Positions 9,907 to 50,750 of a DNA stretch of 64,000 bases are shown piece by piece. Under the pieces are notes generated by a model, which was not told where the DNA came from, made no database searches, and saw only the letters and a program-made list of their open reading frames with translations. The position numbers and the translations under genes are program-made. Every line of letters starts with the position of its first letter. Position 1 is the first letter of the stretch. Source of the DNA: a virus (lineage: Duplodnaviria > Caudoviricetes); IMG/VR virus record IMGVR_UViG_3300005439_000018, positions 1 through 64,000 of that record; one strand, written 5' to 3'.

Positions 9907-12402
9907 ATGAACGGATGCCGCATGCACGAGCACGTTGAGAAGCAGTGGCGGGAGCTGGCCGAGCAGGGGGTATTCGTCTTCCCCCTGGCGGCCGGGGGAA
10001 AGAACCCCGGCGATCTTGGCGTGAAGTGGCAGAAGACCTGGGTGGACAAGCAGCGCAACCCCTGGCCCCAGCTGGCCAGCGCGTACGACGAGGCCGAGGG
10101 CCTGTGGATGGCGACCGGCCGCGTGTCGATGCGGGTGGTGCTCGACATCGACAAGCCCGAGGCCGGGGACTACTGGCGCGACAAGATCGGCGCCGACCTG
10201 TTCGACCGCGCCCTCCGGGTCAGCACCGGCAAGGGGTACCACCTGCACTTCCGGATCCCGCCGGAGGACGACCGGCCGTGGGAGTCCCACTCGGACAACG
10301 ACCTCGGGTACGACTTCCGGGGCGACGGGGGAGGGGTGGTGATCCCTCCCAGCGTGCACGCCAGCGGCCGGGTGTACGAGTGGGCGGGCGGCGAGCTGCT
10401 CGACGTGCCGGAGGCCCTACGCCACCCCGCCCACACCAAGCCGTCCAACGTGAAGTCGCTGGACAGGGCGCGCGAGAAGAAGACCCCCGGGTCGACCCTG
10501 TCCGGGCTGCTGTCCGACCCGCCGGAGGAGGGCGGCCGGAACAACTGGCTCACCAAAGTCGCCGGTCACCTGGCCCGGCTGTGGCCCGCCCCGATGGCGG
10601 ACGCCTACACCGAGCTGGTCCGGTACATCGGGGCCACCCTCCCCGACCCGCTGGAGGATGCCGAGTCCCTCAAGACGGCCGAGTCCGTCTGGTCCCGCGA
10701 GAAGACCCACACCGAGGGCCTGGCCTGCCCGCCCGAGGCCGGATTCCTGTCGGCCCACAACGGCAAGATGTACACCCGGTGCAAGGGCGAGGACGGCAAC
10801 ATATACGCCAAGGAATGGGCCAACTTCGACCTGGCTGCCCGCCGCGTGGTCCAGGAGCACGACGAGCGCGTGTTCTACGTCGACATCGTGGCCGAGCACA
10901 CCACCTACGCCAACGAGCCCCTGCGGGCCGACGTGCTCGGCAACATCAACCGCCTGAACGTCTGGCTGGCGGCCCACCACATCGTGATCATCGGGCAGCC
11001 CACCGACCTGTGCAAGATGTCCTACGGGTCCCGCCTGATCCAGTATCTGCTGCACCAGAATCCGCCGATGGCCCAGATCGCAGAATTCTACGGCCACCAG
11101 GACGACGGGTCGTTCATCACTCCCGACGGGATCGTGGAGGGGGGTGGTGTAGCGCCCTTCCGCTCCGTGATCCCCGCCGCCTATCTGTCCGGGTGGGTCG
11201 GGTACCGCTACGGCACCTGCCCGCCCGAGGAGGCGCTGTCCGTGCTGCGCGAGGTGCTGACCTTCCAGGAGGAGACCACCGCATCGGTGTTCGGATCCTG
11301 GTGGGCGATGGCCCTGCTCAAGGGCAGATTCAGCAGCTCGCTGTTCCCGTTCATGCTGCTGGAAGCCGGGTCGGAGTCCGGCAAGACGACCGGATTCTTC
11401 GCCCAGATGGTCGCGCTGGCCGGGTCCAAGGACGGGGCGGGGCAGCACACCGCCGCCTCCTTCCGGGACGCGCTGGCCGCCCACCGCAACGGCATCGCCT
11501 GGCTGGACGACATGACCGAGGTGTCCACCGGCCAGGTGGTCGACATGATCCGCCAGGCCACCGGCGAGAGCACCCGGGGCAAGAAGGGCCTGGACAACAA
11601 GTTGACCGAGCGGGTCGCCCTGCGGTCCCCGATCCTGGTCTCGGGCGAGGGATCGGGCACGATGATGTCCGAGAAGGCCATGTCCGACCGTGCTGTGAAG
11701 CTGACGTTCTCCAGCCCGAAGGGCCGGATGAGCCTGCGCGACCCCGAACGCCCGCAGTGGGACGACGTGGTAGCGCTCCAGGAACGGTACGGAGGCACCA
11801 CGGGAGGGCTCACGGCGGTCTCCGGGACCCTGGTGGCCATGGTGCTGGCCCGGGCGTCCCTCCTGTCGTCCCTGGCGTCTCTCCGGCCGCCGGGTGCGGG
11901 CCGCCACGCGGACAAGATGGCCATCCTCCGCATGGGCGCTCGCGTCCTGGCGGACCTGACCGGCGACCAGTCCCACGTGGCCCGCGTCGACGCCTGGGTG
12001 GAGGCCCAGGTGGACACTGGGGCGGCCAACCTGATGGTCAACGAGATCGTGCCCTGGGTGCTGAGGCAGGGCGGGGGTGGTGTGCCCACCATGGCCAAGG
12101 GCTGGGTGCCCGCGTTCTACAGCCCGCAGTCGGGCACCGTCTGGGTCCACTCTGGCCAGCTGGCGGACCGCTGGCACGAGCGCAGCAACCTGTCCGCCCG
12201 GGAGCGCCAGCTGGGCACCCAGGCCGCGATCGACACCGAGCTGGCCGCCCTGGGTGCAGCCAGCGCCCGCAAGACCGTCGAGTTCCACGGCAAGAGCGAA
12301 GGGGGCAACGTCCAGAAGCGCTACCGCGAGATCCCCCGCGAGTGGACGGCCCACATCCTGGACCGGGCCGGTGTGGATCTCGGGACGGCCGCCGCCCTAT
12401 GA
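9907..12402 (+). CDS. Bifunctional primase-polymerase / helicase
   Basis: VFPLAAGGKNP, VLDIDK, STGKGYHLHF, DFRGDGGGVVIPPSVH prim-pol motifs; PriCT-like GGRNNWL; C-terminal ESGKTT Walker A. Confidence 0.9.
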   Translation: MNGCRMHEHVEKQWRELAEQGVFVFPLAAGGKNPGDLGVKWQKTWVDKQRNPWPQLASAYDEAEGLWMATGRVSMRVVLDIDKPEAGDYWRDKIGADLFDRALRVSTGKGYHLHFRIPPEDDRPWESHSDNDLGYDFRGDGGGVVIPPSVHASGRVYEWAGGELLDVPEALRHPAHTKPSNVKSLDRAREKKTPGSTLSGLLSDPPEEGGRNNWLTKVAGHLARLWPAPMADAYTELVRYIGATLPDPLEDAESLKTAESVWSREKTHTEGLACPPEAGFLSAHNGKMYTRCKGEDGNIYAKEWANFDLAARRVVQEHDERVFYVDIVAEHTTYANEPLRADVLGNINRLNVWLAAHHIVIIGQPTDLCKMSYGSRLIQYLLHQNPPMAQIAEFYGHQDDGSFITPDGIVEGGGVAPFRSVIPAAYLSGWVGYRYGTCPPEEALSVLREVLTFQEETTASVFGSWWAMALLKGRFSSSLFPFMLLEAGSESGKTTGFFAQMVALAGSKDGAGQHTAASFRDALAAHRNGIAWLDDMTEVSTGQVVDMIRQATGESTRGKKGLDNKLTERVALRSPILVSGEGSGTMMSEKAMSDRAVKLTFSSPKGRMSLRDPERPQWDDVVALQERYGGTTGGLTAVSGTLVAMVLARASLLSSLASLRPPGAGRHADKMAILRMGARVLADLTGDQSHVARVDAWVEAQVDTGAANLMVNEIVPWVLRQGGGGVPTMAKGWVPAFYSPQSGTVWVHSGQLADRWHERSNLSARERQLGTQAAIDTELAALGAASARKTVEFHGKSEGGNVQKRYREIPREWTAHILDRAGVDLGTAAAL

Positions 12403-12690
12403 CGGCGCCCGGGTGTCATAGCGTATGACCCCAGGCGTCATACTAACGCCCCGCCACTAGATTGTGACGGGGCGTTACTGTGCCCAGGCCCCACTCACTT
12501 CCTTACCCGTCACATGACGTCATATCTCTCCTAAAAAATGTCATATTATTATATGGGCCTCGGCCTGCGGTGGGCGTCTCTTATATGACGGCATGACGGT
12601 ATGACTGCGGTATAGCGCTTATGTGTGCGTGTGTATGCGTGTGTATACGCGCCCGACCCCCCTTTCTCCGGACGGCGTCATACCGGCCGG
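12398..12690. other. Putative replication origin
   Basis: Non-coding, AT-rich core 12521-12555, about 11 ATGAC/GTCAT iterons in both orientations directly after the primase-helicase. Confidence 0.65.
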
Positions 12691-12716
12691 GGTGCGGATT
12701 TCGGTCGGGGGTGCGC

Positions 12717-12746
12717 TTGACAGCCTAGCAACCGCTGGCATAGACT
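12717..12746 (+). promoter_or_regulatory. Promoter of the Y RNA/Ro60 operon
   Basis: TTGACA-N18-TAGACT; operator variant TTGAC-AGCCT-AGCAA. Confidence 0.8.
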
Positions 12747-12747
12747 G

Positions 12748-12828
12748 GGTACCAGATCGAGACGAACGGCAGCGGGTTACCTGGCACGGACTATCCCGCC
12801 GCCGAACCCCCTATCCCGATCGCGTACT
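12748..12828 (+). ncRNA. Y-RNA-like element 1 (short form)
   Basis: Paired ends, GACGAAC Ro-binding-type motif, stem CGGCAGCGGG/CCCGCCGCCG, TTAC, C-rich bulge. Confidence 0.6.
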
Positions 12829-12857
12829 GCCCGGCCCCACAGCCGGGAATGCACCAC

Positions 12858-12947
12858 CCGCTGGTCCCGAGCCGAAACGCAATGGGTTACCTTTTGTATC
12901 GGACGAAACCAGTTCCCGTAGCGGAGTCATTCGCCCGGGGCCAGCGG
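12858..12947 (+). ncRNA. Y-RNA-like element 2 (short form)
   Basis: 15-bp terminal stem, GCCGAAAC motif, stem CGCAATGGG/CCCGTAGCG, TTAC. Confidence 0.65.
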
Positions 12948-12966
12948 CAGCAACACCCCCGGGCGC

Positions 12967-13067
12967 CCTGTCGCCCGGGGTCCCGAGAGCGAGCAGCAAG
13001 GATGAGGCGCCAACCAACCGGGGCGCCGGAGTCCCGGCCCATCTCTCTCGGGGCCCCGGGCGACAGG
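12967..13067 (+). ncRNA. Structured RNA in the Y array (class 2)
   Basis: 23-bp terminal stem; internal GAGCAGCAAG and GGCGCC stem with a CCAACCA-containing loop. Confidence 0.45.
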
Positions 13068-13071
13068 AACC

Positions 13072-13203
13072 GGGCGGGCCGAAGGACATCGGTTATGGAC
13101 TCTTAATCCCCGGGTTGCGGGTTCGAATCCCGCCGCCGCCCCAGGGCGGCGTAGCTCAATTGGCAGAGCAGGTAAACGCCGGTGTCCACCCTCTCGCCCG
13201 CCC
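13072..13203 (+). ncRNA. yrlA: YrlA-type Y RNA (permuted tRNA mimic) 1
   Basis: GCCGAAGG motif; T-arm GCGGG-TTCGAAT-CCCGC, then closed acceptor CGCCGCC/GGCGGCG, then D-arm GCTC-AATTGGCA-GAGC; ends GGGCGGGC/GCCCGCCC pair. Confidence 0.85.
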
Positions 13204-13217
13204 GACTCCGACAGTCC

Positions 13218-13350
13218 GGGGCCGGTCGAAGGCAGTTCGGTTATCTTTTGGGAAGAAAGAACGCGGGTTCGAATCCCGCCGCCGGGTCCGTCCCGGTGTA
13301 GTGTAGCGGCCTAACACATTAACCCGGACAGCCGCCCCCTCACCGGCCCT
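13218..13350 (+). ncRNA. yrlA: YrlA-type Y RNA (permuted tRNA mimic) 2
   Basis: GGTCGAAG motif; T-arm GCGGG-TTCGAAT-CCCGC, acceptor CGCCGGG/CCCGGTG, D-arm GTGT-AGCGGCCTA-ACAC; paired ends. Confidence 0.85.
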
Positions 13351-13354
13351 CCAA

Positions 13355-13432
13355 GGTCCTGTAGCTCAGCGCGGTTAGAGCATCCGCCCGTCAAGCGGAA
13401 GGTCGCCGGTTCAACCCCGGTCAGGATCGCCA
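13355..13432 (+). tRNA. tRNA-Asp(GTC)
   Basis: Full cloverleaf, loop CCGTCAA (C33), discriminator G, encoded CCA. Confidence 0.88.
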
Positions 13433-13553
13433 GCCCCCCGGAAGAGCAGAAGCGCACCCCGCCCAACCACTTGCCCGGGGTTATCCTCGTTCAACCGGGG
13501 GGCTGCACCGCCCCAAGATCGCCCGTGCACCACACGAGCCGAAAGGCAGTACC

Positions 13554-15239
13554 ATGGACGCCCTGAGCGCGTACCACTCGTTCGCCCGCAACACCCCGCA
13601 GTCCCACCCGATCCCGGGCCGCGAGACCGAGATGGCCCGCAACGGCGCCGGTGGCTTCTCCTTCACCAAGGACGTGTGGACCCGGCTGGGGGACTTCCTG
13701 ATCCTGGGCACTGAGGGCGGCACCTACTACGCCGACGAGCGCAGCCACACCATCTCGAACGTCGCGGTGGTCCGCCAGGCCCTGGAGCTGGACGGATCCC
13801 GCGCCGTCGCCCTGGCCGTCGAGATCTCCACCGCCCGCCCGGCCCGCGCCCCCAAGCCGTACCCGGCCCTGTACCTGGTCGCCGCCGCCCTGGCCACCGG
13901 CGACCTGGACGCCCGCCGGGCCGCCGCCGACGCCGTCCCCCGGGTCGCCCGCACCACCGATCACCTGTCCCACCTGTTCGGCTACTACAAGACCCTGAAG
14001 GGTCGGCCGGGCAGGGGTGGTGTGGGTCTGGCCGCGCCGTCCAGCGTGGTCGTCCGCCGGGCCTGGGCCAACTGGTTCACCCAGGCGCCCCCGGACACGG
14101 TGGCCCACAAGATCCTGAAGGCCGGTCAGCGCAAGACCGGCGACGGCGAGGCGTTCACGCCCGGCGACCTGCTGCGCATCGCCCACCCGCGTCCGGCCAA
14201 CCCGGTCCAGGAGGCGGTGTTCCAGCTGGCCCTGGGCCGCAAGACGCCCATGGAGGTCTCGGGATTCCTGGCCTCGGCCAAGGCGTTCTACGAGGCCAAC
14301 CGCGTCACCACCACGGCCGAGGCGGTCCGCGCCATCAACGCCTACCACGTCCCGTGGGAGTTCCTGCCGGACGCGGTGCTGAAGTCCCCCGACGTGTGGG
14401 AGGCCCTGGTGCCCCACCTGGGCATGACCGCCCTGATCCGCAACCTGTCCCGCATGACCACCATCGGTACCCTCGGCCCCTTCCGCCAGTCCAACGGCCG
14501 GGTGGCCAAGCGCCTGCGCAACCCGTCCGAGCTGGCCCAGGGCCGGATCCACCCGTTCGACCTGCTGCTGGCCCACCGGGTCTACTCGTCCGGCCGGGCC
14601 CAGCCCCACCCGAACGCCCCGGTGCGCACCTGGAGCCCGGTGGGGGAGGTGGTGCGCGCGCTGTCCGACGCCTACTCGCTGGCGTTTGCCAGCGCCGAGC
14701 GCACCGACGCCCGGATGGTGATCGCCGTCGACGGGTCCGGGTCCATGATGAACTACCGGATCCAGCACGGCGGGTCGTCCCTCGGGTCGGCCTACCACGT
14801 CTGCTCGGCGGTCGCGGCGATGCTGGCGGGCACCTGCTCGGACCAGACCTGGCTGATGGAGTTCGACAGCCGCCCGCGCCCGTCCCAGGTCCACCCCGGG
14901 ATGTCGCTGTCGGAGGTCTTCTCCAAGCGGTGCGGCGGCGGCGCCACCGACCTGGCGGCCCCGGTCGGGTGGGCGCTGGCCAACGGGGTGGTCACCGACC
15001 TGTTCGTGCTGCTGACCGACGGGGAGACCTGGGCCGGTCAGCGCCACGCCTCCCAGGTGCTGGCCGAGTACCGGGCCCGGTACAACCCGAACGCCCGGCT
15101 GGTGATCGCCTCGACCACTGCCGCCGGTTACTCGGTCGGCGACCCGCGCGACCCCGGCGTCCTGAACATCGCCGGGTTCGACTCGGCGGTCCCCACCCTG
15201 GTCAACGGGTTCGCCCGCGCCTCCCGGGCCGCCCTGTGA
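13554..15239 (+). CDS. rsr: Ro60/TROVE-domain RNA-binding protein
   Basis: RNGAGGFSF...RLGDFLILGTEGGTYYA, PRVARTTDHL, VPWE, GMTALIRNLSRM, vWA DGSGSM and GGGATD, LLTDGETW, NIAGFDS. Confidence 0.95.
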   Translation: MDALSAYHSFARNTPQSHPIPGRETEMARNGAGGFSFTKDVWTRLGDFLILGTEGGTYYADERSHTISNVAVVRQALELDGSRAVALAVEISTARPARAPKPYPALYLVAAALATGDLDARRAAADAVPRVARTTDHLSHLFGYYKTLKGRPGRGGVGLAAPSSVVVRRAWANWFTQAPPDTVAHKILKAGQRKTGDGEAFTPGDLLRIAHPRPANPVQEAVFQLALGRKTPMEVSGFLASAKAFYEANRVTTTAEAVRAINAYHVPWEFLPDAVLKSPDVWEALVPHLGMTALIRNLSRMTTIGTLGPFRQSNGRVAKRLRNPSELAQGRIHPFDLLLAHRVYSSGRAQPHPNAPVRTWSPVGEVVRALSDAYSLAFASAERTDARMVIAVDGSGSMMNYRIQHGGSSLGSAYHVCSAVAAMLAGTCSDQTWLMEFDSRPRPSQVHPGMSLSEVFSKRCGGGATDLAAPVGWALANGVVTDLFVLLTDGETWAGQRHASQVLAEYRARYNPNARLVIASTTAAGYSVGDPRDPGVLNIAGFDSAVPTLVNGFARASRAAL

Positions 15240-15604
15240 CCCGCCGCACCAGGTACGAGTACGCCGACCCGGACGACTGGTCGACCCGCCGCACGGTCGA
15301 GATCGACCAGTGGGAGGGCAACTGGTCCGGCCAGGGCCCGGTCGACATGACCGGCCGCCCGATCCAGCCTGGCGACTGGGTGGCCAAGGTCTACCAGTCG
15401 GGACGCTCCGCCAACATGGAGGTCCGGCAGGTCCGCGAGGTGCGTCCCGCCCGTCCCCGCAAGGACTGGCGGGGGGAGGTGGTGCAGGACCCCACTCCCC
15501 GGGTGTACCTGTCCGACAGCAAGACCCCCGTCGACTACCCCGGCCGCATGCTGGTGGTCCCGTGGGACCCGGCCGGTGGCCGGGTCCCGGGCCTGAACCC
15601 CTGA
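15236..15604 (+). CDS. Hypothetical protein (SH3-like beta fold)
   Basis: GTGA overlap with Ro60; DMTGRPIQPGDWVA. Confidence 0.7.
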   Translation: MTRRTRYEYADPDDWSTRRTVEIDQWEGNWSGQGPVDMTGRPIQPGDWVAKVYQSGRSANMEVRQVREVRPARPRKDWRGEVVQDPTPRVYLSDSKTPVDYPGRMLVVPWDPAGGRVPGLNP

Positions 15605-15779: not shown

Positions 15780-15809
15780 TTGACAGCCGGGCAAGCTCCC
15801 GGCTAGACT
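15780..15809 (+). promoter_or_regulatory. Promoter (leaderless dinG transcript) with operator
   Basis: TTGACA-N18-TAGACT, ATG 6 nt downstream; TTGAC-AGCCG-GGCAA. Confidence 0.8.
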
Positions 15810-15815
15810 CGTCCC

Positions 15816-17771
15816 ATGACGATAAAGACCTGGGACGAGGCGGAGGCCAAGTTCGCAGCCGCCTGGCCCACCTTCCAGCCCCGCCCCCAGCAGCGCCTGA
15901 TGGCCCAGTCGGTGGCCCGCTGCTGGTCCGGCAACGCCAACCACCCCCGGCTGCTGGCCCAGGCCGGGTGCGGTGTCGGCAAGTCGGTCGGCTACCTGGT
16001 CCCCACCATCGCCTCCGGCCGCCGGGCCGTGGTCGCGGTCTCGACCAAGGCCCTCCAGGACCAGGTGTACCTCAAGGACCTCCCCATGCTGAAGCAGGTC
16101 CTGTTCCCGGACCTGACCTTCGCGGTCCTAAAGGGCCGGTCCAACTACGTGTGCGCCCGGGCCTGCGACAAGAACTCGATACCCTACCAGGTCCAGCCCG
16201 GCTCGAACGGGGAGCGCGGCGACCTGGTGACGCCGGTGACCGACGACCAGTGGCGCAGCATGTCGGTGGACGCCGACGGCTGCATCGGCCGCAAGCAGTG
16301 CCCCTTTGCCGACCAGTGCTTCAGCGAGCGCGCCAAGCGCCTCGCGGCCGAGGCCCAGGTCGTGGTGGTCAACACCTCGCTGCTGACCCAGCACCTGAAG
16401 CTGGCCCTCACCACCTCCGGCAACGCCTCGATGCTGGGCGACGTCCAGGCCGTGGTGGTCGACGAGGCCCACGAGATGCCCGACATCGTGGCCTCCGGCC
16501 TGTCCACCCGCGTCACGATGCACCGCCTGACCGACACCCTGTCCAGGCTGGCCTACCACCTGACCGCCAAGGACGTCCCGGTGCGGGTCGCCCGCGCCAC
16601 CGAGCTGGCCGCCAGCTTCTTCAACGGGGCCGCCGCCTGGTTCCAGGCCCAGGACGAGGACCTGCGCACGGCCGACCTGGCCGACGACGACCGCAAGGCC
16701 CTGGGCCCCCTGATCGACGAGCTGGCCTACCTGTCGGCCCAGTCCGGCAAGGCGATGTGCAGCTGCGAGCCGGTGTTCGACAACGACACCGGTGAGGAGC
16801 GCCTGCTGTGCGAGTACGCGCGCCGCACCTCGTCGCTGCTGTCCGACGTCGCCGACTTCGCCGACGACACCCCCGGCCACAGCGTGGTGTGGATGGAGTA
16901 CAACGGGCGCCAGGTCGCCCTGTGCGCCGCCCCCGCCGAGGTCGGCGGCTTCCTGGACTCGGCCCTGTGGAACCCCGACTGGCAGCGCCAGCCCACCAAG
17001 GCCGTCCTGTGCTCGGCCACCCTGGCCGTCGGCGGCGACGCCTCCTACCTGGCCTCCCGGCTCGGGATCTCCGGCTACGACTGGGAGGACGTCGGCACCC
17101 CGTTCGACTACAAGACCCAGGCCCGCCTGTACCTGGCCCCGGCCTCCGCCCCCAACCCCGCCAAGCAGTACGCGGACTGGAAGCGCTGGGCGCAGGACGA
17201 GATGTACGGCCTGATAGACGCGGCGGGGGGTGGTGCGCTGCTGCTGTTCACCAGCTCCGCCGCCATGAGGGAGGCCCACCAGGCCCTGGCGCCGCGTCTG
17301 CGGCGGCGCCGACTGGGTGCCTACCTCCAGGGCGACGGCCTGGACAACCGCCAGCTTGCGGCCCGGTTCGCGGCCGACACCGACGGCGTCCTGTTCGCCA
17401 CCCGCTCGTTCATGACCGGCGTCGACTTCGCCGGTAGCACCTGCCGCCTGGTGGTGGTCGACAAGATGCCGTTCCCGGTCCCCACCGAGCCCGTGTTCAA
17501 GGCCCGGTGCGAGGCCGCCGACAGGCGCTGGGGCGAGAAGGCCTCCTTCCGCAAGGTCTCGGTGCCCGACATGTCGATGGTCCTCATGCAGGCCGCCGGG
17601 CGCCTGATCCGCACCGTCGAGGACCGGGGCGTGGTCGCCATACTGGACCCCCGCCTGCGCGCGGGCTGGGCCCTGTCCATCCGCCGCTCCCTGCCCCCGG
17701 CGCCCCTGGTGGGCGCCGTGGACGACGTCCGCGACTTCTTCGCGGCGCTCCCGGCGGGAGTGGCCGCGTGA
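15816..17771 (+). CDS. dinG: DinG/YoaA-family DNA helicase
   Basis: QAGCGVGKS, TKALQDQ, KGRSNY.C, VVDEAH, CSATL, LLFTS, GVDF, KMPFP.P, QAAGRLIR. Confidence 0.93.
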   Translation: MTIKTWDEAEAKFAAAWPTFQPRPQQRLMAQSVARCWSGNANHPRLLAQAGCGVGKSVGYLVPTIASGRRAVVAVSTKALQDQVYLKDLPMLKQVLFPDLTFAVLKGRSNYVCARACDKNSIPYQVQPGSNGERGDLVTPVTDDQWRSMSVDADGCIGRKQCPFADQCFSERAKRLAAEAQVVVVNTSLLTQHLKLALTTSGNASMLGDVQAVVVDEAHEMPDIVASGLSTRVTMHRLTDTLSRLAYHLTAKDVPVRVARATELAASFFNGAAAWFQAQDEDLRTADLADDDRKALGPLIDELAYLSAQSGKAMCSCEPVFDNDTGEERLLCEYARRTSSLLSDVADFADDTPGHSVVWMEYNGRQVALCAAPAEVGGFLDSALWNPDWQRQPTKAVLCSATLAVGGDASYLASRLGISGYDWEDVGTPFDYKTQARLYLAPASAPNPAKQYADWKRWAQDEMYGLIDAAGGGALLLFTSSAAMREAHQALAPRLRRRRLGAYLQGDGLDNRQLAARFAADTDGVLFATRSFMTGVDFAGSTCRLVVVDKMPFPVPTEPVFKARCEAADRRWGEKASFRKVSVPDMSMVLMQAAGRLIRTVEDRGVVAILDPRLRAGWALSIRRSLPPAPLVGAVDDVRDFFAALPAGVAA

Positions 17772-23775: not shown

Positions 23776-26022
23776 GTGAGCATAGGACCCGTGAGGGTCG
23801 GCAGCGTGTGGCTGCCCGACCTGCCCCCGGGCGTCCAGGTGGCATTCGACACCGAGACCTTCGGGCTGTATCCCGACGGCGACCCGGGCGGCGACAGCGG
23901 CGACCCGGGCAGCCCCCCTTCCTGGATCAGCGCCGCGAGCATCGCCTACCGCGACCCGGACACCGGCCACATCGCCAGCCACGCCTGGGGGTTCGATCAG
24001 GGCCCCTGCCCGGACAAGCCCGGACGGGTGCGCAGGCCCCGGGAGGGGGGTGGCGTGGAGCAGTTCGATCCTGCCAAGATGTTGGCCACCCTGGCCAAGT
24101 ACGGGTACGGGTCGCGCGAATTCACCGGCGCCGACTTCCAGTACGAGATGAATAAGAAGGGCACCAAGGTCCGGAAGACCACGGTGACCAACGTGCAGCG
24201 CTGGGTGCCCTGGACCTGGCAGGAAGCGTACCGGTCCGAGAGCCTGGAGTCCTGGCTCAACCTGGTCCGGTGGCTGCGGGACCGTCCTCAGCTGGTGATG
24301 CACAACGCCAAGTTCGACATGACCACCACCCGGCTCGGGCTGCGCCCCGAGGTGGTCGCCCGGAACATCGCGGCCGACCCGGAGCTGTATCTCGGCATCG
24401 ACCCGGGCGACCCGGCCCGGTTCAGCCTGGACCTGGACCGGCTGGCCGACGGCACCCTGCGCCCCGTCCGGGGCGTATGGGACACCATGCTGGTCCAGTC
24501 ATTCTTCGACCCCAGGCACCCGGTGGCCCTGAAGAAGACCGGCAAGCGCCTGTGGGGCGACCGGTCGGAGGCGGAGCAGCAGACGCTGCTGGACGCCATG
24601 AAGCGCCAGGGCGTCGGCCTGACCAAGCGGTACGACCTGACCCCGTGGCCGGTCATGGAGCCGTACGCCGCCAAGGATACGGTCCTGACGCTGCTGCTGG
24701 AGGAGCACCAGCGGGCCCGCATCGCCTCCGGCGACCACCCGCCGTGCCTGTGGGAGCAGATCGACAAGGAGTTCGGCCTCATGCGGGTGCTGTACCGCAT
24801 GGAGGGCAGGGGGGTGGCGTACGACGTCGCGGGTTCGGAGTCCGGGGCGCGGCTGCTGCGGGAGTCGATGTCCGGGATCGAGGCCCGGCTGCCGTTCGAC
24901 CCCAGCAAGCTGGCCTCGGTCAAGCAGTTCTACTTCGCCCCCGAGTACGAGGGCGGGCTGGGCATCGTCCCGCTGAAGACCACTGAGAAGACCGGCCAGC
25001 CGTGCCTGGACGAGGCCCAGGTGCGCATCCTGGTCAACCAGGGGCGGCCCTGGGCGGCCGAGTACGACGAGTGGTCCCACTGCCGCAGCGCACTGGGCAA
25101 GTGGTATGACGGGTGGGCCAAGCGGACCGGCGCCGACGGCCGGTTGCGGACGGTGTTCAAGCAGTGCGTCGTGGCCGAGGAGCGCGCGGGTGCCCGTACC
25201 GGCGGCACCATCAGCGGGCGGCTGGCCGTGGGCCGGGTCCAGCTCCAGGCGATCCCCCACAACCACCAGCTGCCCGAGCCCGTACGGCACCTGCCCGTAC
25301 GGTCGCTGATCGGGGCCCGGCCGGGGCACTGCCTGTACGAGATGGACCTGCCGCAGGGAGAGGTGCGGATCGCCACGGTGGTGGTCAACTGCTCGGCGAT
25401 GTGGGACGTCATCGACTCGGGCGCCGACCTGCACGGGGAGAACGCCAAGCGCATCTTCGGGATCGGCGAGGACGACGAGCGCTACGAGGCGTACCGGGGC
25501 GTGGCCAAGCGCATCGTGTTCGGCACGCTGTACGGCGCCGGGGTCCGCACCCTGCGCCAGCAGATCCTGGAGTTCACCGGCCTGGACTACAGCGAGGACG
25601 AGACGCGCGAGGCCAAGCAGGCATTCGAGCGTACGTTCCCGGAGTTCCCCCGGGTGGCCCGCCAGATCCAGCGCAAGGCCGACCGGGCGCTGGGCGGCCC
25701 CGGCTACGTGCGGCTGATCGACGGGCGGCGGCGGTGGTTCGGCCCCGAGGAGTACAGCCACAAGGCGTTCAACGCGGTGATCCAGGGCGGCCTGGCCCAG
25801 ACCGGCAAGACCTGGATGATCGAGGTCGAGCAGCAGCTGCCCGGCATCCAGGTACTGGCCATCCACGACTCGATCGTGGTCGAGGTCCCCGACAGCGACT
25901 ACGGGGAGCACCTGGCCCGCCAGGTCGCCGCGATCGGCAAGGAGGTCTACGAGCGCGATTACGGCGTCCGTGGCCGCACCATGTATTTCGACATCGTCCC
26001 CAAGCGCTGGGGCCATAAGTGA
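23776..26022 (+). CDS. Family A DNA polymerase (candidate DpoZ)
   Basis: Exo I AFDTET, HNAKFD, YAAKD; GRL...QLQAIP, DLPQGEVR, DLH, KRIVFGTLYGAG, HKAFNAVIQG, IHDSIV. Confidence 0.93.
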   Translation: MSIGPVRVGSVWLPDLPPGVQVAFDTETFGLYPDGDPGGDSGDPGSPPSWISAASIAYRDPDTGHIASHAWGFDQGPCPDKPGRVRRPREGGGVEQFDPAKMLATLAKYGYGSREFTGADFQYEMNKKGTKVRKTTVTNVQRWVPWTWQEAYRSESLESWLNLVRWLRDRPQLVMHNAKFDMTTTRLGLRPEVVARNIAADPELYLGIDPGDPARFSLDLDRLADGTLRPVRGVWDTMLVQSFFDPRHPVALKKTGKRLWGDRSEAEQQTLLDAMKRQGVGLTKRYDLTPWPVMEPYAAKDTVLTLLLEEHQRARIASGDHPPCLWEQIDKEFGLMRVLYRMEGRGVAYDVAGSESGARLLRESMSGIEARLPFDPSKLASVKQFYFAPEYEGGLGIVPLKTTEKTGQPCLDEAQVRILVNQGRPWAAEYDEWSHCRSALGKWYDGWAKRTGADGRLRTVFKQCVVAEERAGARTGGTISGRLAVGRVQLQAIPHNHQLPEPVRHLPVRSLIGARPGHCLYEMDLPQGEVRIATVVVNCSAMWDVIDSGADLHGENAKRIFGIGEDDERYEAYRGVAKRIVFGTLYGAGVRTLRQQILEFTGLDYSEDETREAKQAFERTFPEFPRVARQIQRKADRALGGPGYVRLIDGRRRWFGPEEYSHKAFNAVIQGGLAQTGKTWMIEVEQQLPGIQVLAIHDSIVVEVPDSDYGEHLARQVAAIGKEVYERDYGVRGRTMYFDIVPKRWGHK

Positions 26023-50612: not shown

Positions 50613-50750
50613 CCTGGTTCCCTTCCCGGGGCGGCCCCTCCGCCCCCTCTGAATAAAATTCTATCATAGGGGTTGCCTATTTGTCAATATCCCCGACACG
50701 AGCCCGCCCGGCCGCAGGGTGCGCGGCCGGGCGGGGGGTGGTGTAGCGGG

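What the first reader, a model, noticed from the sequence alone, without database searches (positions are those of the whole stretch)
12717..15239. Phage Ro60 operon led by an array of at least four Y-RNA-like genes of two architectures
Seen: one promoter is followed by four elements sharing paired ends, a GNCGAA motif, an inner stem followed by GGTTA(C/T) and a mostly pyrimidine-rich opposing bulge. Two are short (12748-12828, 12858-12947). Two are full permuted tRNA mimics with T-arm, closed acceptor stem and D-arm (13072-13203, 13218-13350). tRNA-Asp and Ro60 follow. Known: bacterial YrlA RNAs have this motif and topology, tether Ro60 to effectors such as PNPase, and occur in a few mycobacteriophages. 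Inference: a multi-member array suggests a modular adaptor set that sends phage Ro60 to several partners, or acts as decoys for anticodon nucleases.
Basis: partly seen in the sequence, partly recalled or inferred. Interest (0 to 1): 0.85.

Follow-up and report, generated by a model that had tools for sequence, protein, structure and literature searches.

The report
Phage Ro60 operon with four Y RNAs
A complete uncultured soil phage carries a cassette of four small Y-type RNA genes, a tRNA and the ring protein Ro60. This is a larger version of a known RNA-protein system, and the Ro60 message carries a look-alike of the RNAs' docking site that may let Ro60 limit its own synthesis.

Summary
One sigma-70-type promoter (12717-12746) is followed by:
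- two short stem-loop RNAs (12748-12828, 12858-12947);
- a long GC hairpin;
- two permuted tRNA mimics of the YrlA type (13071-13204, 13218-13350);
- tRNA-Asp and a second hairpin;
- Ro60 (13554-15239, TROVE + vWA);
- a coupled 122-aa gene of unknown function.

All four RNAs share one handle: outer stem, GNCGAA loop facing a pyrimidine-rich strand, 9-bp inner stem, then GG/UUAY.

Related phage contigs forming four further lineages (Ro60 56-58% identical) keep the layout. Three have all four elements; one has three. Covariation supports the stems. Two classes of tRNA-like element are conserved across lineages.

The kind is known: Rsr with YrlA/YrlB, mycobacteriophage YrlA, and Thermus phage phiLo Ro60 with two upstream Y-like RNAs. 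Arrays of two to six such elements turned out to be common beside unrelated Ro60 genes. Earlier notes of this scan report similar arrays in other phages.

The possibly new part is the Ro60 leader. In all five lineages it looks like a permuted copy of that lineage's own Y handle, placed at the ribosome-binding site. That suggests autoregulation by mimicry.

The adaptor-set and decoy functions remain untested.

The parts
12717..12746 (+). Sigma-70-type promoter (TTGACA, 18 nt, TAGACT). The predicted transcript start lies a few bases before the core stem of element 1.
   Evidence: It belongs to a promoter family of six sites in the window, against 0.12 expected. L001 and L002 have a TTGACA promoter at the same place.
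12748..12828 (+). Y element 1: short stem-loop Y RNA (YrlB-like). Motifs GACGAACG and GGGUUACC.
   Evidence: Fold. Model R1, built without this element, scores it 42.1 bits, E 5.8e-8. L002 element 1 is 84% identical.
12858..12947 (+). Y element 2: short stem-loop Y RNA with a small apical hairpin. Its 5' strand reads GGUCCCGAGCCGAAAC.
   Evidence: Fold z-score -3.0. In RNAalifold on five orthologues, 13 of 22 pairs show compensatory changes.
12967..13065 (+). Long, nearly perfect GC hairpin between elements 2 and 3. No U tract follows. Probably a processing site or attenuator.
   Evidence: Free energy -84.7 kcal/mol, z-score -7.7. No sequence relative in the other lineages, though L007 and L008 have unrelated hairpins between their elements.
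13071..13204 (+). Y element 3: YrlA-type permuted tRNA mimic, class A. It has the handle, a hairpin with loop CUCUUAA, a T-arm, a closed 7-bp acceptor stem and a D-arm.
   Evidence: Rfam YrlA 47.5 bits. Fold z-score -3.5. Class A orthologues in four lineages are 72-82% identical.
13218..13350 (+). Y element 4: YrlA-type permuted tRNA mimic, class B. Its D-arm differs from that of class A.
   Evidence: Rfam YrlA partial match, 20.4 bits. Same architecture in the fold. Class B orthologues are 71-79% identical.
13355..13432 (+). tRNA-Asp(GTC). Probably supplies RNase P and RNase Z cuts that release the array from the Ro60 message.
   Evidence: Rfam tRNA 60.9 bits and ARAGORN. A tRNA or tRNA-like gene sits at this position in L001, L005, L007 and L008.
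13429..13506 (+). GC-rich hairpin upstream of the Ro60 leader.
   Evidence: Free energy -43.3 kcal/mol, z-score -3.75. A GC hairpin of unrelated sequence sits at the same place in L001, L002 and L005.
13519..13549 (+). Ro60 leader that looks like a circularly permuted Y handle. Order: 3'-arm-like UCGCCCG, a small capping hairpin, then 5'-arm-like CGAGCCGAAAGGCA, which contains the ribosome-binding site.
   Evidence: Joint similarity to the lineage's own Y arms is 17.3, against 11.95 +/- 0.59 for shuffled leaders and 12.4 +/- 0.67 for random windows of the coding sequence. The pattern is seen in all five lineages.
13554..15239 (+). Ro60 (TROVE ring plus vWA domain), 561 aa.
   Evidence: Pfam, PHROG 850, and matches to solved Rsr and Ro60 structures.
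15236..15604 (+). Conserved 122-aa gene. Its GTG start overlaps the Ro60 stop codon (GTGA). Function unknown; predicted all-beta.
   Evidence: 45-61% identical copies follow Ro60 in L001, L004 and L006-L009. No Pfam or PHROG family. Absent from cultured phages. Model pLDDT 69, with no significant fold match.

Best explanation
This is an accessory cassette of about 2.9 kb (12717-15604) that makes a phage Ro60-Y RNA particle. It lies between the primase-polymerase gene and the DinG-like helicase gene of a complete 77-kb actinophage of the Hiyaa type.

Shown by sequence and comparison:
- One promoter precedes four non-coding genes, a tRNA and Ro60.
- The four RNAs share one handle: an outer stem, an asymmetric loop with GNCGAA on the 5' side and pyrimidines on the 3' side, and a 9-bp inner stem ending GG/UUAY.
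- The apical part differs. It is a plain loop or hairpin in elements 1 and 2, and a permuted tRNA (T-arm, closed 7-bp acceptor stem, D-arm) in elements 3 and 4.

Inferred from what is known of Rsr with YrlA, YrlB or Yrn1, and of phiLo Ro60:
- The region is transcribed as one precursor.
- The precursor is cut by RNase P and RNase Z at the tRNA, and perhaps at the 7-bp acceptor stems. It may also be cut at the long hairpin.
- Ro60 binds each handle on its outer surface, and the bound RNAs are stabilised.
- The apical modules bring Ro60 to different host partners. Host PNPase is the likeliest one, because the phage encodes no PNPase, RtcB or CCA-adding enzyme.
- The particle would then remodel or degrade structured RNA during infection.

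Inferred here:
- The Ro60 leader imitates the handle at the ribosome-binding site. Surplus Ro60 would then repress its own translation, and free Y RNAs would relieve that repression.
For: - Ro60 identity.
- YrlA matches. They score higher than those of the cultured phages scanned, at 26.7-36.6 bits. That set includes Catera and Tonenili, relatives of ET08, whose YrlA is published.
- The known YrlA marks, GNCGAA and YUAY, are present (definitions in PMC4201824).
- The array is kept in four other lineages.
- Inner stem: 89% standard pairs, against 30-44% in slid registers and 67 +/- 3% with permuted 3' arms.
- Outer stem of the long elements: 8 of 9 pairs show compensatory changes.
- Short family over 35 elements from Ro60 loci: 94.3% paired against 67.2% shuffled and 36-48% slid; 20 of 22 pairs covary.
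- All 42 hits of model R1 lie on the Ro60 strand. Only elements 1 and 2 are hit in the whole genome.
- No conserved reading frame crosses the array.
- Two classes of tRNA-like element are kept across lineages.
- The 5' strand of element 3 has the same CCGAAGG-N6-GUUAU spacing as mouse Y1 (PMC4597359). The published 5' end of human Y4 carries GGGUUAUC as well (PMC5763536).
- A phage precedent exists: phiLo Ro60 binds two upstream Y-like RNAs and host PNPase.
- Leader mimic.
Against: - There are no expression or binding data. The phage is uncultured.
- Both YrlA matches are below Rfam's gathering score. The second is a partial match at E 0.17.
- Rfam's metazoan Y_RNA model gave no hit at E <= 10.
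- Element 1 alone folds no better than shuffled sequence (z-score -0.78).
- Element 2 misses the strict GNCGAAN0-1G motif.
- The five lineages are related, so their agreement is not five independent observations.
- The alignment behind one search was fitted to the model's structure.
- The leader hairpins are not unusually stable.
- The leader motif is not enriched near Ro60 start codons in distant loci: 4 of 68, about as expected.
Confidence: 0.8

Rival explanations
1. Only the two tRNA-like elements are Ro60 ligands. The two short elements, the hairpins and the leader motif would be cis-acting parts of the transcript, such as attenuators, processing signals or stabilisers, or decayed copies of Y genes.
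For: - Element 1 folds no better than shuffles.
- Short GC-rich hairpins are common in actinophage leaders.
- The two long hairpins have no conserved sequence.
Against: - The short elements carry the same handle and the same GG/UUAY junction as the tRNA-like ones.
- They belong to a covarying family found next to Ro60 in many unrelated loci, always on the Ro60 strand.
- Short Y RNAs bound by Rsr are established: YrlB and Yrn2 (PMC4201824).
Confidence: 0.1
2. The tRNA-like elements act mainly as decoys or baits for host enzymes that cut or bind tRNA, such as anticodon nucleases. Ro60 would only stabilise them.
For: - Element 3 and its class A orthologues carry a hairpin with a 7-nt loop reading C-U-NUU-A-A. 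The middle triplet is CUU, GUU or UUU, that is, Lys- or Asn-like.
- 22 of 34 tRNA-like Y elements from diverse loci have a loop with the anticodon-loop marks (U at position 2, purine at position 6). Shuffled controls give 2.5 +/- 1.5.
- Both acceptor stems are 7 bp, the length at which M. smegmatis YrlA is cut by RNase P.
Against: - The hairpin stem is only 3-4 bp, against 5 bp in tRNA.
- In the solved Salmonella YrlA structure the Y stem occupies the anticodon-stem position and there is no anticodon loop (10.1101/312249).
- The class B elements and the two short elements have no such loop.
- No tRNA-targeting defence is known for the unknown host.
Confidence: 0.07
3. The elements are degenerate or permuted tRNA genes left by rearrangement of a phage tRNA cluster, with no function of their own.
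For: - The Rfam tRNA model joins the D-arm of element 3 to the T-arm of element 4 at 29.4 bits.
- ARAGORN calls a 'tRNA-Leu' over the 5' half of L007 element 3.
Against: - The permuted order, closed acceptor stems and handles are conserved with compensatory changes across lineages whose Ro60 is only 57% identical.
- ARAGORN calls no tRNA in the window's elements.
- The architecture is that of YrlA.
Confidence: 0.03

Closest known systems
Bacterial Rsr (Ro60) with YrlA and YrlB (S. Typhimurium, M. smegmatis; Chen et al. 2014, PMC4201824; Rfam RF02553)
   Same: - The RNAs lie on the Ro60 strand within 4 kb of the gene.
- The GNCGAA motif and the YUAY junction are present.
- One class has T-arm, closed acceptor stem and D-arm; the other is a plain hairpin.
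- In M. smegmatis both RNAs lie upstream of rsr and are cut from one precursor. Its YrlA has a 7-bp acceptor stem that RNase P cleaves.
   Different: - Four RNAs here instead of two, including two different tRNA-like classes in tandem.
- Scores are below the Rfam cut-off.
- There is no RtcB/RtcA neighbour.
- A tRNA gene, a leader that imitates the handle, and a coupled 122-aa gene belong to the cassette.
Mycobacteriophage Ro60 with YrlA (ET08, Bxz1 and Catera type; 22 phages in Chen et al. 2014)
   Same: A phage-borne Ro60 is preceded by a YrlA-type RNA on the same strand. Rfam scores are similarly below threshold, at 31-37 bits.
   Different: - Catera and Tonenili have the order short, YrlA, short: three elements and only one tRNA mimic.
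- Their Ro60 is only about 33% identical to the window's.
Thermus phage phiLo Ro60 with Yrl1 and Yrl2 (PMC12135203, 2025)
   Same: Two Y-like RNAs with a CGAA motif lie directly upstream of the phage Ro60 gene. Binding was shown. Host PNPase joins the complex, and the phage has no PNPase of its own. The window's phage also has none.
   Different: As far as the text read goes, phiLo has two RNAs and no tRNA-like modules are described. Nothing has been tested experimentally for the window's phage.
D. radiodurans Rsr-Yrn1-PNPase complex, and vertebrate Y1-Y5 RNAs
   Same: - The principle is the same: a handle binds Ro60 and a variable module recruits an effector.
- Each of these genomes has two to four Y RNAs.
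- The 5' strand CCGAAGG-N6-GUUAU of element 3 has the spacing of mouse Y1.
   Different: - Rfam's Y_RNA model does not match.
- Vertebrate Y RNAs are separate polymerase III genes rather than one operon.
- Vertebrate Y RNAs have no tRNA-like module.
Translational feedback by molecular mimicry (ribosomal-protein operons, threonyl-tRNA synthetase leader; from general knowledge)
   Same: In the leader, a copy of the protein's normal RNA target sits at the ribosome-binding site of the protein's own message.
   Different: I did not find this described for Ro60 in the papers searched. Here it rests on sequence resemblance alone.

Membership tests
YrlA (Rfam RF02553; Chen et al. 2014) | Encoded within 4 kb of a Ro60 orthologue, on the same strand | tested here: met
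   All four elements lie 200-800 nt upstream of Ro60 on the + strand.
YrlA (Rfam RF02553; Chen et al. 2014) | GNCGAAN0-1G motif near the 5' end | tested here: met
   Element 1 reads GACGAACG, element 3 GCCGAAG and element 4 GUCGAAG. Element 2 reads GCCGAAAC and misses by one base.
YrlA (Rfam RF02553; Chen et al. 2014) | Conserved YUAY where the V region begins | tested here: met
   UUAC, UUAC, UUAU and UUAU follow the inner stem in elements 1-4. The motif is invariant in all 19 elements of the clade.
YrlA (Rfam RF02553; Chen et al. 2014) | T-arm, closed acceptor-like stem and D-arm, in that order, enclosed by the stem | tested here: met
   Met for elements 3 and 4. Not met for elements 1 and 2, which are therefore YrlB-like and not YrlA.
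YrlA (Rfam RF02553; Chen et al. 2014) | Score at or above Rfam's gathering threshold (69 bits) | tested here: not met
   47.5 and 20.4 bits. The YrlA-type elements of seven cultured phages also score only 26.7-36.6 bits. The threshold therefore excludes this whole branch.
YrlA (Rfam RF02553; Chen et al. 2014) | Bound and stabilised by Ro60; carries tRNA-type modifications | not testable with these tools
   This needs RNA from infected or expressing cells.
Metazoan-type Y RNA (Rfam RF00019) | Match to the Y_RNA covariance model | tested here: not met
   No Y_RNA match at E <= 10 over 12600-13560. The resemblance of 5'-strand motifs to Y1 and Y4 is real but short.
Ro60 / TROVE protein | TROVE HEAT-repeat ring followed by a vWA domain, with full-length similarity to solved Ro60 structures | tested here: met
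   Pfam TROVE and vWA_Ro60. Matches to 2nvo at 3.1e-71 and 1yvp at 1.2e-61, both over nearly the full length.
Canonical or permuted tRNA gene | 5-bp anticodon stem with a 7-nt loop, open acceptor end, recognised by tRNA finders | tested here: not met
   ARAGORN calls nothing in 13071-13350. The acceptor stems are closed. The only anticodon-like hairpin has a 3-bp stem.

The most novel reading that the evidence does not exclude
The Ro60 message is controlled by a circularly permuted copy of the Y-RNA handle placed at its ribosome-binding site. Free Ro60 would shut off its own translation, and free Y RNAs would switch it back on. That would be ribosomal-protein-style feedback, not described for any Ro60 as far as the papers searched show.

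On the same reading, the conserved Y classes are non-redundant adaptors. That applies to the two tRNA-like classes and, less clearly, to the two short types. The class A tRNA mimic presents a Lys/Asn-type anticodon-loop look-alike to a tRNA-recognising host factor. The coupled 122-aa protein is a further partner.
Probability: 0.3. Interest if true: 0.65.

Novelty: new variant of a known kind. Interest (0 to 1): 0.42.

Why it matters
Ro60-Y RNA particles are known from animals to bacteria, but several things are still open. It is unclear why genomes keep several Y RNAs, what the tRNA-like module binds, and what phages gain from the system.

This cassette is compact, carries its own promoter and is conserved in several phage lineages. 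It holds two classes of tRNA-like Y RNA that are kept across lineages, two short Y RNAs, the protein, a small coupled gene of unknown function, and a leader that resembles the handle.

It can be synthesised and expressed in a laboratory actinobacterium. That would allow tests of which RNA recruits which partner, and of whether Ro60 sets its own level against its RNAs.

The survey made along the way also matters. It shows that arrays of two to six Y-type RNAs are the rule beside many uncharacterised Ro60 genes. It also shows that Rfam's YrlA threshold misses all the phage examples scanned.

Tried and rejected
- **Close relatives among cultured phages.** Megablast of the locus against 50,697 phage records found nothing. 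The best Ro60 match there is 35% identical.
- **RNAalifold on all nine short elements.** On a plain MAFFT alignment it recovered only the outer stem, because the 3' halves were misaligned. I replaced it with an analysis anchored on GGTTAY, a five-sequence alignment and an alignment made by the covariance model.
- **The two long hairpins as a second repeated RNA class.** Hairpins 12967-13065 and 13429-13506 do not align meaningfully. Only the position of the one before Ro60 is conserved.
- **Handle motif next to the start codon in distant Ro60 loci.** It occurs in 4 of 68, about the background rate. The leader mimic is therefore specific to this clade.
- **The 227-aa open frame over the array (12623-13306).** It is not conserved. 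In the relatives every frame is broken by 2-12 stops.
- **Phage-encoded partners.** No RtcB, no PNPase or RNase PH domain, and no CCA-adding enzyme in the complete genome.
- **The 122-aa downstream protein.** No Pfam or PHROG family. The model has pLDDT 69, and no fold match has E <= 0.001.
- **CCA in the acceptor loop of element 3.** It is not conserved in the class A orthologues, so I gave it no weight.
- **Reviews not held.** The two reviews of bacterial Y RNAs (PMC10870794, PMC6047535) are not in the library. My statements about what is undescribed are limited to the papers I could read.
Full report
**What the window is.** The window is the first 64 kb of a complete 77,296-bp virus record with direct terminal repeats. 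The primase-polymerase gene just upstream (9907-12402) is closest to Streptomyces phages Keanu, Galactica and Hiyaa, at 47% identity. The host is therefore probably a high-GC actinobacterium. Hiyaa keeps the order primase, short gap, helicase, with no Ro60 between them. The stretch 12717-15604 therefore behaves as an inserted accessory cassette. Its next neighbour is a DinG-like helicase gene (15816-17771), which has its own copy of the same promoter type at 15780-15809.

**The observation.** It holds almost to the base.
- Folding gives closed domains at 12748-12828, 12858-12947, 13071-13204 and 13218-13350.
- Rfam's YrlA model matches the third element end to end at 47.5 bits. It matches the T-arm-to-D-arm core of the fourth at 20.4 bits. 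Both are below the 69-bit cut-off.
- The tRNA-like Y RNAs of seven cultured phages also score only 26.7-36.6 bits. These include Catera and Tonenili, relatives of ET08, whose YrlA is published. The cut-off, not the RNA, is the limit.
- tRNA-Asp (13355-13432) and Ro60 (13554-15239) follow. Ro60 has the TROVE and vWA domains and matches D. radiodurans Rsr at 3e-71.
- The 227-aa open frame over the array is an artefact of GC content. In the relatives every frame is broken.

**The shared handle.** Every element has the same order of parts:
- an outer stem;
- a 5' loop strand with (Y)GAA(Y), which is the published GNCGAA motif;
- a 9-bp inner stem, often with one mismatch, ending in GG;
- the published conserved YUAY (here UUAC or UUAU);
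- on the return strand, a pyrimidine-rich loop of 6-12 nt.

The motif definitions come from PMC4201824.

The 5' strand of element 3, CCGAAGG-N6-GUUAU, has the spacing of mouse Y1. Its first element relatives resemble human Y4 (sequences in PMC4597359 and PMC5763536). Rfam's metazoan model does not match.

**Relatives.** Scans of virus and metagenome contigs found relatives whose Ro60 is 56-64% identical.
- L001/L006, L002/L010 and L008 carry a promoter, two short elements and two tRNA-like elements upstream of Ro60.
- L007 has one short and two tRNA-like elements.
- L004 and L009 have no upstream DNA. L005 has only 217 nt.

**Covariation.** Over the 19 elements of the clade:
- The inner stem forms standard pairs in 89% of cells. 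Slid registers give 30-44%, and exchanging 3' arms among elements gives 67 +/- 3%. G-C, C-G and A-U alternate at four positions.
- RNAalifold finds compensatory changes in 13 of 22 pairs of the short type.
- It finds them in 8 of 9 outer-stem pairs of the long type.

**Paralogue classes.** The tRNA-like elements fall into two classes that differ in D-arm and V hairpin. Identity is higher between lineages within a class (0.71-0.85) than between classes within one genome (0.65-0.72). L002 element 4 is the exception and is ambiguous. The order is A-B in the window and L002, and B-A in L001, L007 and L008. The two short types show a weaker version of the same pattern. Distinct paralogues kept across this divergence argue against redundancy. 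That is the only evidence here for the adaptor-set idea.

**How unusual the array is.**
- A covariance model of the short type (R1) finds only elements 1 and 2 in the whole phage genome. Element 1 was not in the seed.
- The same model finds 42 matches in 82 Ro60 loci, all on the Ro60 strand.
- Over 35 of these, 94.3% of cells pair and 20 of 22 pairs covary. Both controls are exceeded, with the caveat that the alignment was fitted to the model.
- Catera and Tonenili turn out to have the order short, YrlA, short. Sparky, BearBQ and FuzzBuster have two elements.
- Unrelated metagenomic loci, with Ro60 about 35% identical, have three to six handles in a row. L016 has six, checked by folding.
- Ro60 occurs in 371 cultured phage records.
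- Phage phiLo Ro60 has been shown to bind two upstream Y-like RNAs and host PNPase.
- Earlier notes of this scan report arrays of four to ten such RNAs in other phages. I did not re-test those.

The finding is therefore a solid and rather rich member of a known system, not a new kind.

**The tRNA-like modules.**
- Both have 7-bp closed acceptor stems. That is the length at which M. smegmatis YrlA is cut by RNase P and receives CCA.
- The hairpin between the handle and the T-arm, called V (variable arm) in the literature, has a 7-nt loop in class A. The loop reads CU-CUU-AA in the window and L002, CU-GUU-AA in L001, and CU-UUU-AA in L007 and L008.
- Across diverse loci, 22 of 34 tRNA-like Y elements have a hairpin with a 7-nt loop carrying U at position 2 and a purine at position 6. 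Shuffles give 2.5 +/- 1.5.
- These are the marks of an anticodon loop, and they fit the published idea that YrlA arose from a tRNA dimer.
- This is the only structural basis for the decoy hypothesis. The stem is only 3-4 bp, however, and in the solved YrlA the Y stem takes the anticodon-stem position.

**The Ro60 leader.** Between the GC hairpin (13429-13506) and the start codon the window has three parts in a row:
- a 3'-arm-like UCGCCCG;
- a small capping hairpin;
- CGAGCCGAAAGGCA, which matches the 5' arm of element 2 at 13 of 14 positions and contains the ribosome-binding site.

Each other lineage has the same design, built from its own variant of the handle:
- In L002 the two halves match element 1 at 10 of 10 and 11 of 11 positions.
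- L001 and L008 use their own CGAAUUGAA variant.
- L007 uses GACUGAGGA.
- L005 reads CGAGUUGAAGGAG.

The joint similarity score is 17.3. Shuffled leaders give 11.95 +/- 0.59, and random windows of the Ro60 coding sequence give 12.4 +/- 0.67.

The small hairpins form but are not unusually stable. The motif is not enriched at start codons of distant Ro60 genes.

My reading, at roughly even odds, is feedback by mimicry: Ro60 in excess of its RNAs binds the leader and blocks the ribosome-binding site. A decayed fifth Y gene is the alternative. I found no description of this for Ro60 in the papers I could search.

**Rest of the cassette.**
- A GC hairpin of unrelated sequence lies in front of the leader in the window, L001, L002 and L005. 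It may attenuate read-through or protect the 5' end of the message. This is inference.
- The very stable hairpin at 12967-13065 has no sequence relative elsewhere. It does not form a family with the other hairpin.
- Directly after Ro60, a 122-aa gene starts at a GTG that overlaps the stop codon. It follows Ro60 in six related contigs and is absent from cultured phages. It has no known family, and its moderate-confidence all-beta model has no clear fold match.
- The phage encodes no PNPase, RtcB or CCA-adding enzyme. Any nuclease partner must therefore come from the host, as in phiLo.

**Verdict.** It is a new variant of a known kind. Interest is moderate. It rests on the conserved classes of tRNA-like element, the leader that resembles the handle, and the anticodon-loop-like V hairpin. 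All of these can be tested by expressing the cassette.

Noticed in passing
L016:1468-2425; also L043, L053, L070, L082, L050, L033, L029: Unrelated metagenomic Ro60 loci (Ro60 about 35% identical to the window's) carry three to six handle-bearing RNAs in a row on the Ro60 strand. The consensus is GGGYCGAAG-N6-GGGUUAUC, and plain and T-arm-bearing types are mixed. L016 has six, checked by folding.
   Followed up: partly
window 13095-13109, and tRNA-like Y elements in 30 other loci: The V hairpin of tRNA-like Y RNAs usually has a 7-nt loop with U at position 2 and a purine at position 6, like an anticodon loop. This holds for 22 of 34 elements, against 2.5 +/- 1.5 in shuffles. The 'anticodon' triplet varies between elements. 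The papers I read call this arm a variable arm.
   Followed up: partly
L001:2857-2920 (same in L006): Where the window has tRNA-Asp, this relative has a tRNA-like gene of about 61-65 nt. It has an acceptor stem, D-arm and T-arm but no anticodon arm. Its third acceptor pair is G-U and it ends in ACCA. These are the marks of alanine identity, and they recall the tRNA-like domain of tmRNA. Rfam tRNA scores it 46 bits; ARAGORN calls nothing.
   Followed up: partly
window 12400-12700: The gap between the primase-polymerase gene and the cassette drops to 48-54% GC, against about 70% around it. It holds at least eight ATGAC/GTCAT motifs in both orientations. L001 has a different repeated word (ATGGAACA) at the same place. 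This may be an origin or an operator region.
   Followed up: partly
window 4339, 12717, 15780, 31878, 39540 (+) and 50658-50687 (-): There is a family of six promoter-like sites, TTGACAGCC..GCAA..TAGNMT, against 0.12 expected by chance. They probably mark the phage's early or middle transcription units.
   Followed up: no
window 15236-15604: A conserved 122-aa all-beta protein of unknown family is translationally coupled to Ro60. It is found only with this Ro60 clade and is a candidate partner of the particle.
   Followed up: partly
L090:1586-1946 (Tonenili), L086:2085-2444 (Catera): Cluster C mycobacteriophages have two short Y-type RNAs flanking their YrlA. In Tonenili the annotated hypothetical gene 253 (L090:1646-1786) lies over these RNAs and is probably not a real gene.
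   Followed up: partly
window 24808-24897; L007:2067-2156: ARAGORN calls a 90-nt tRNA-Pro in the window that Rfam does not support. It also calls a 'tRNA-Leu' that is really the 5' half of a tRNA-like Y element in L007. Both look like false calls.
   Followed up: no
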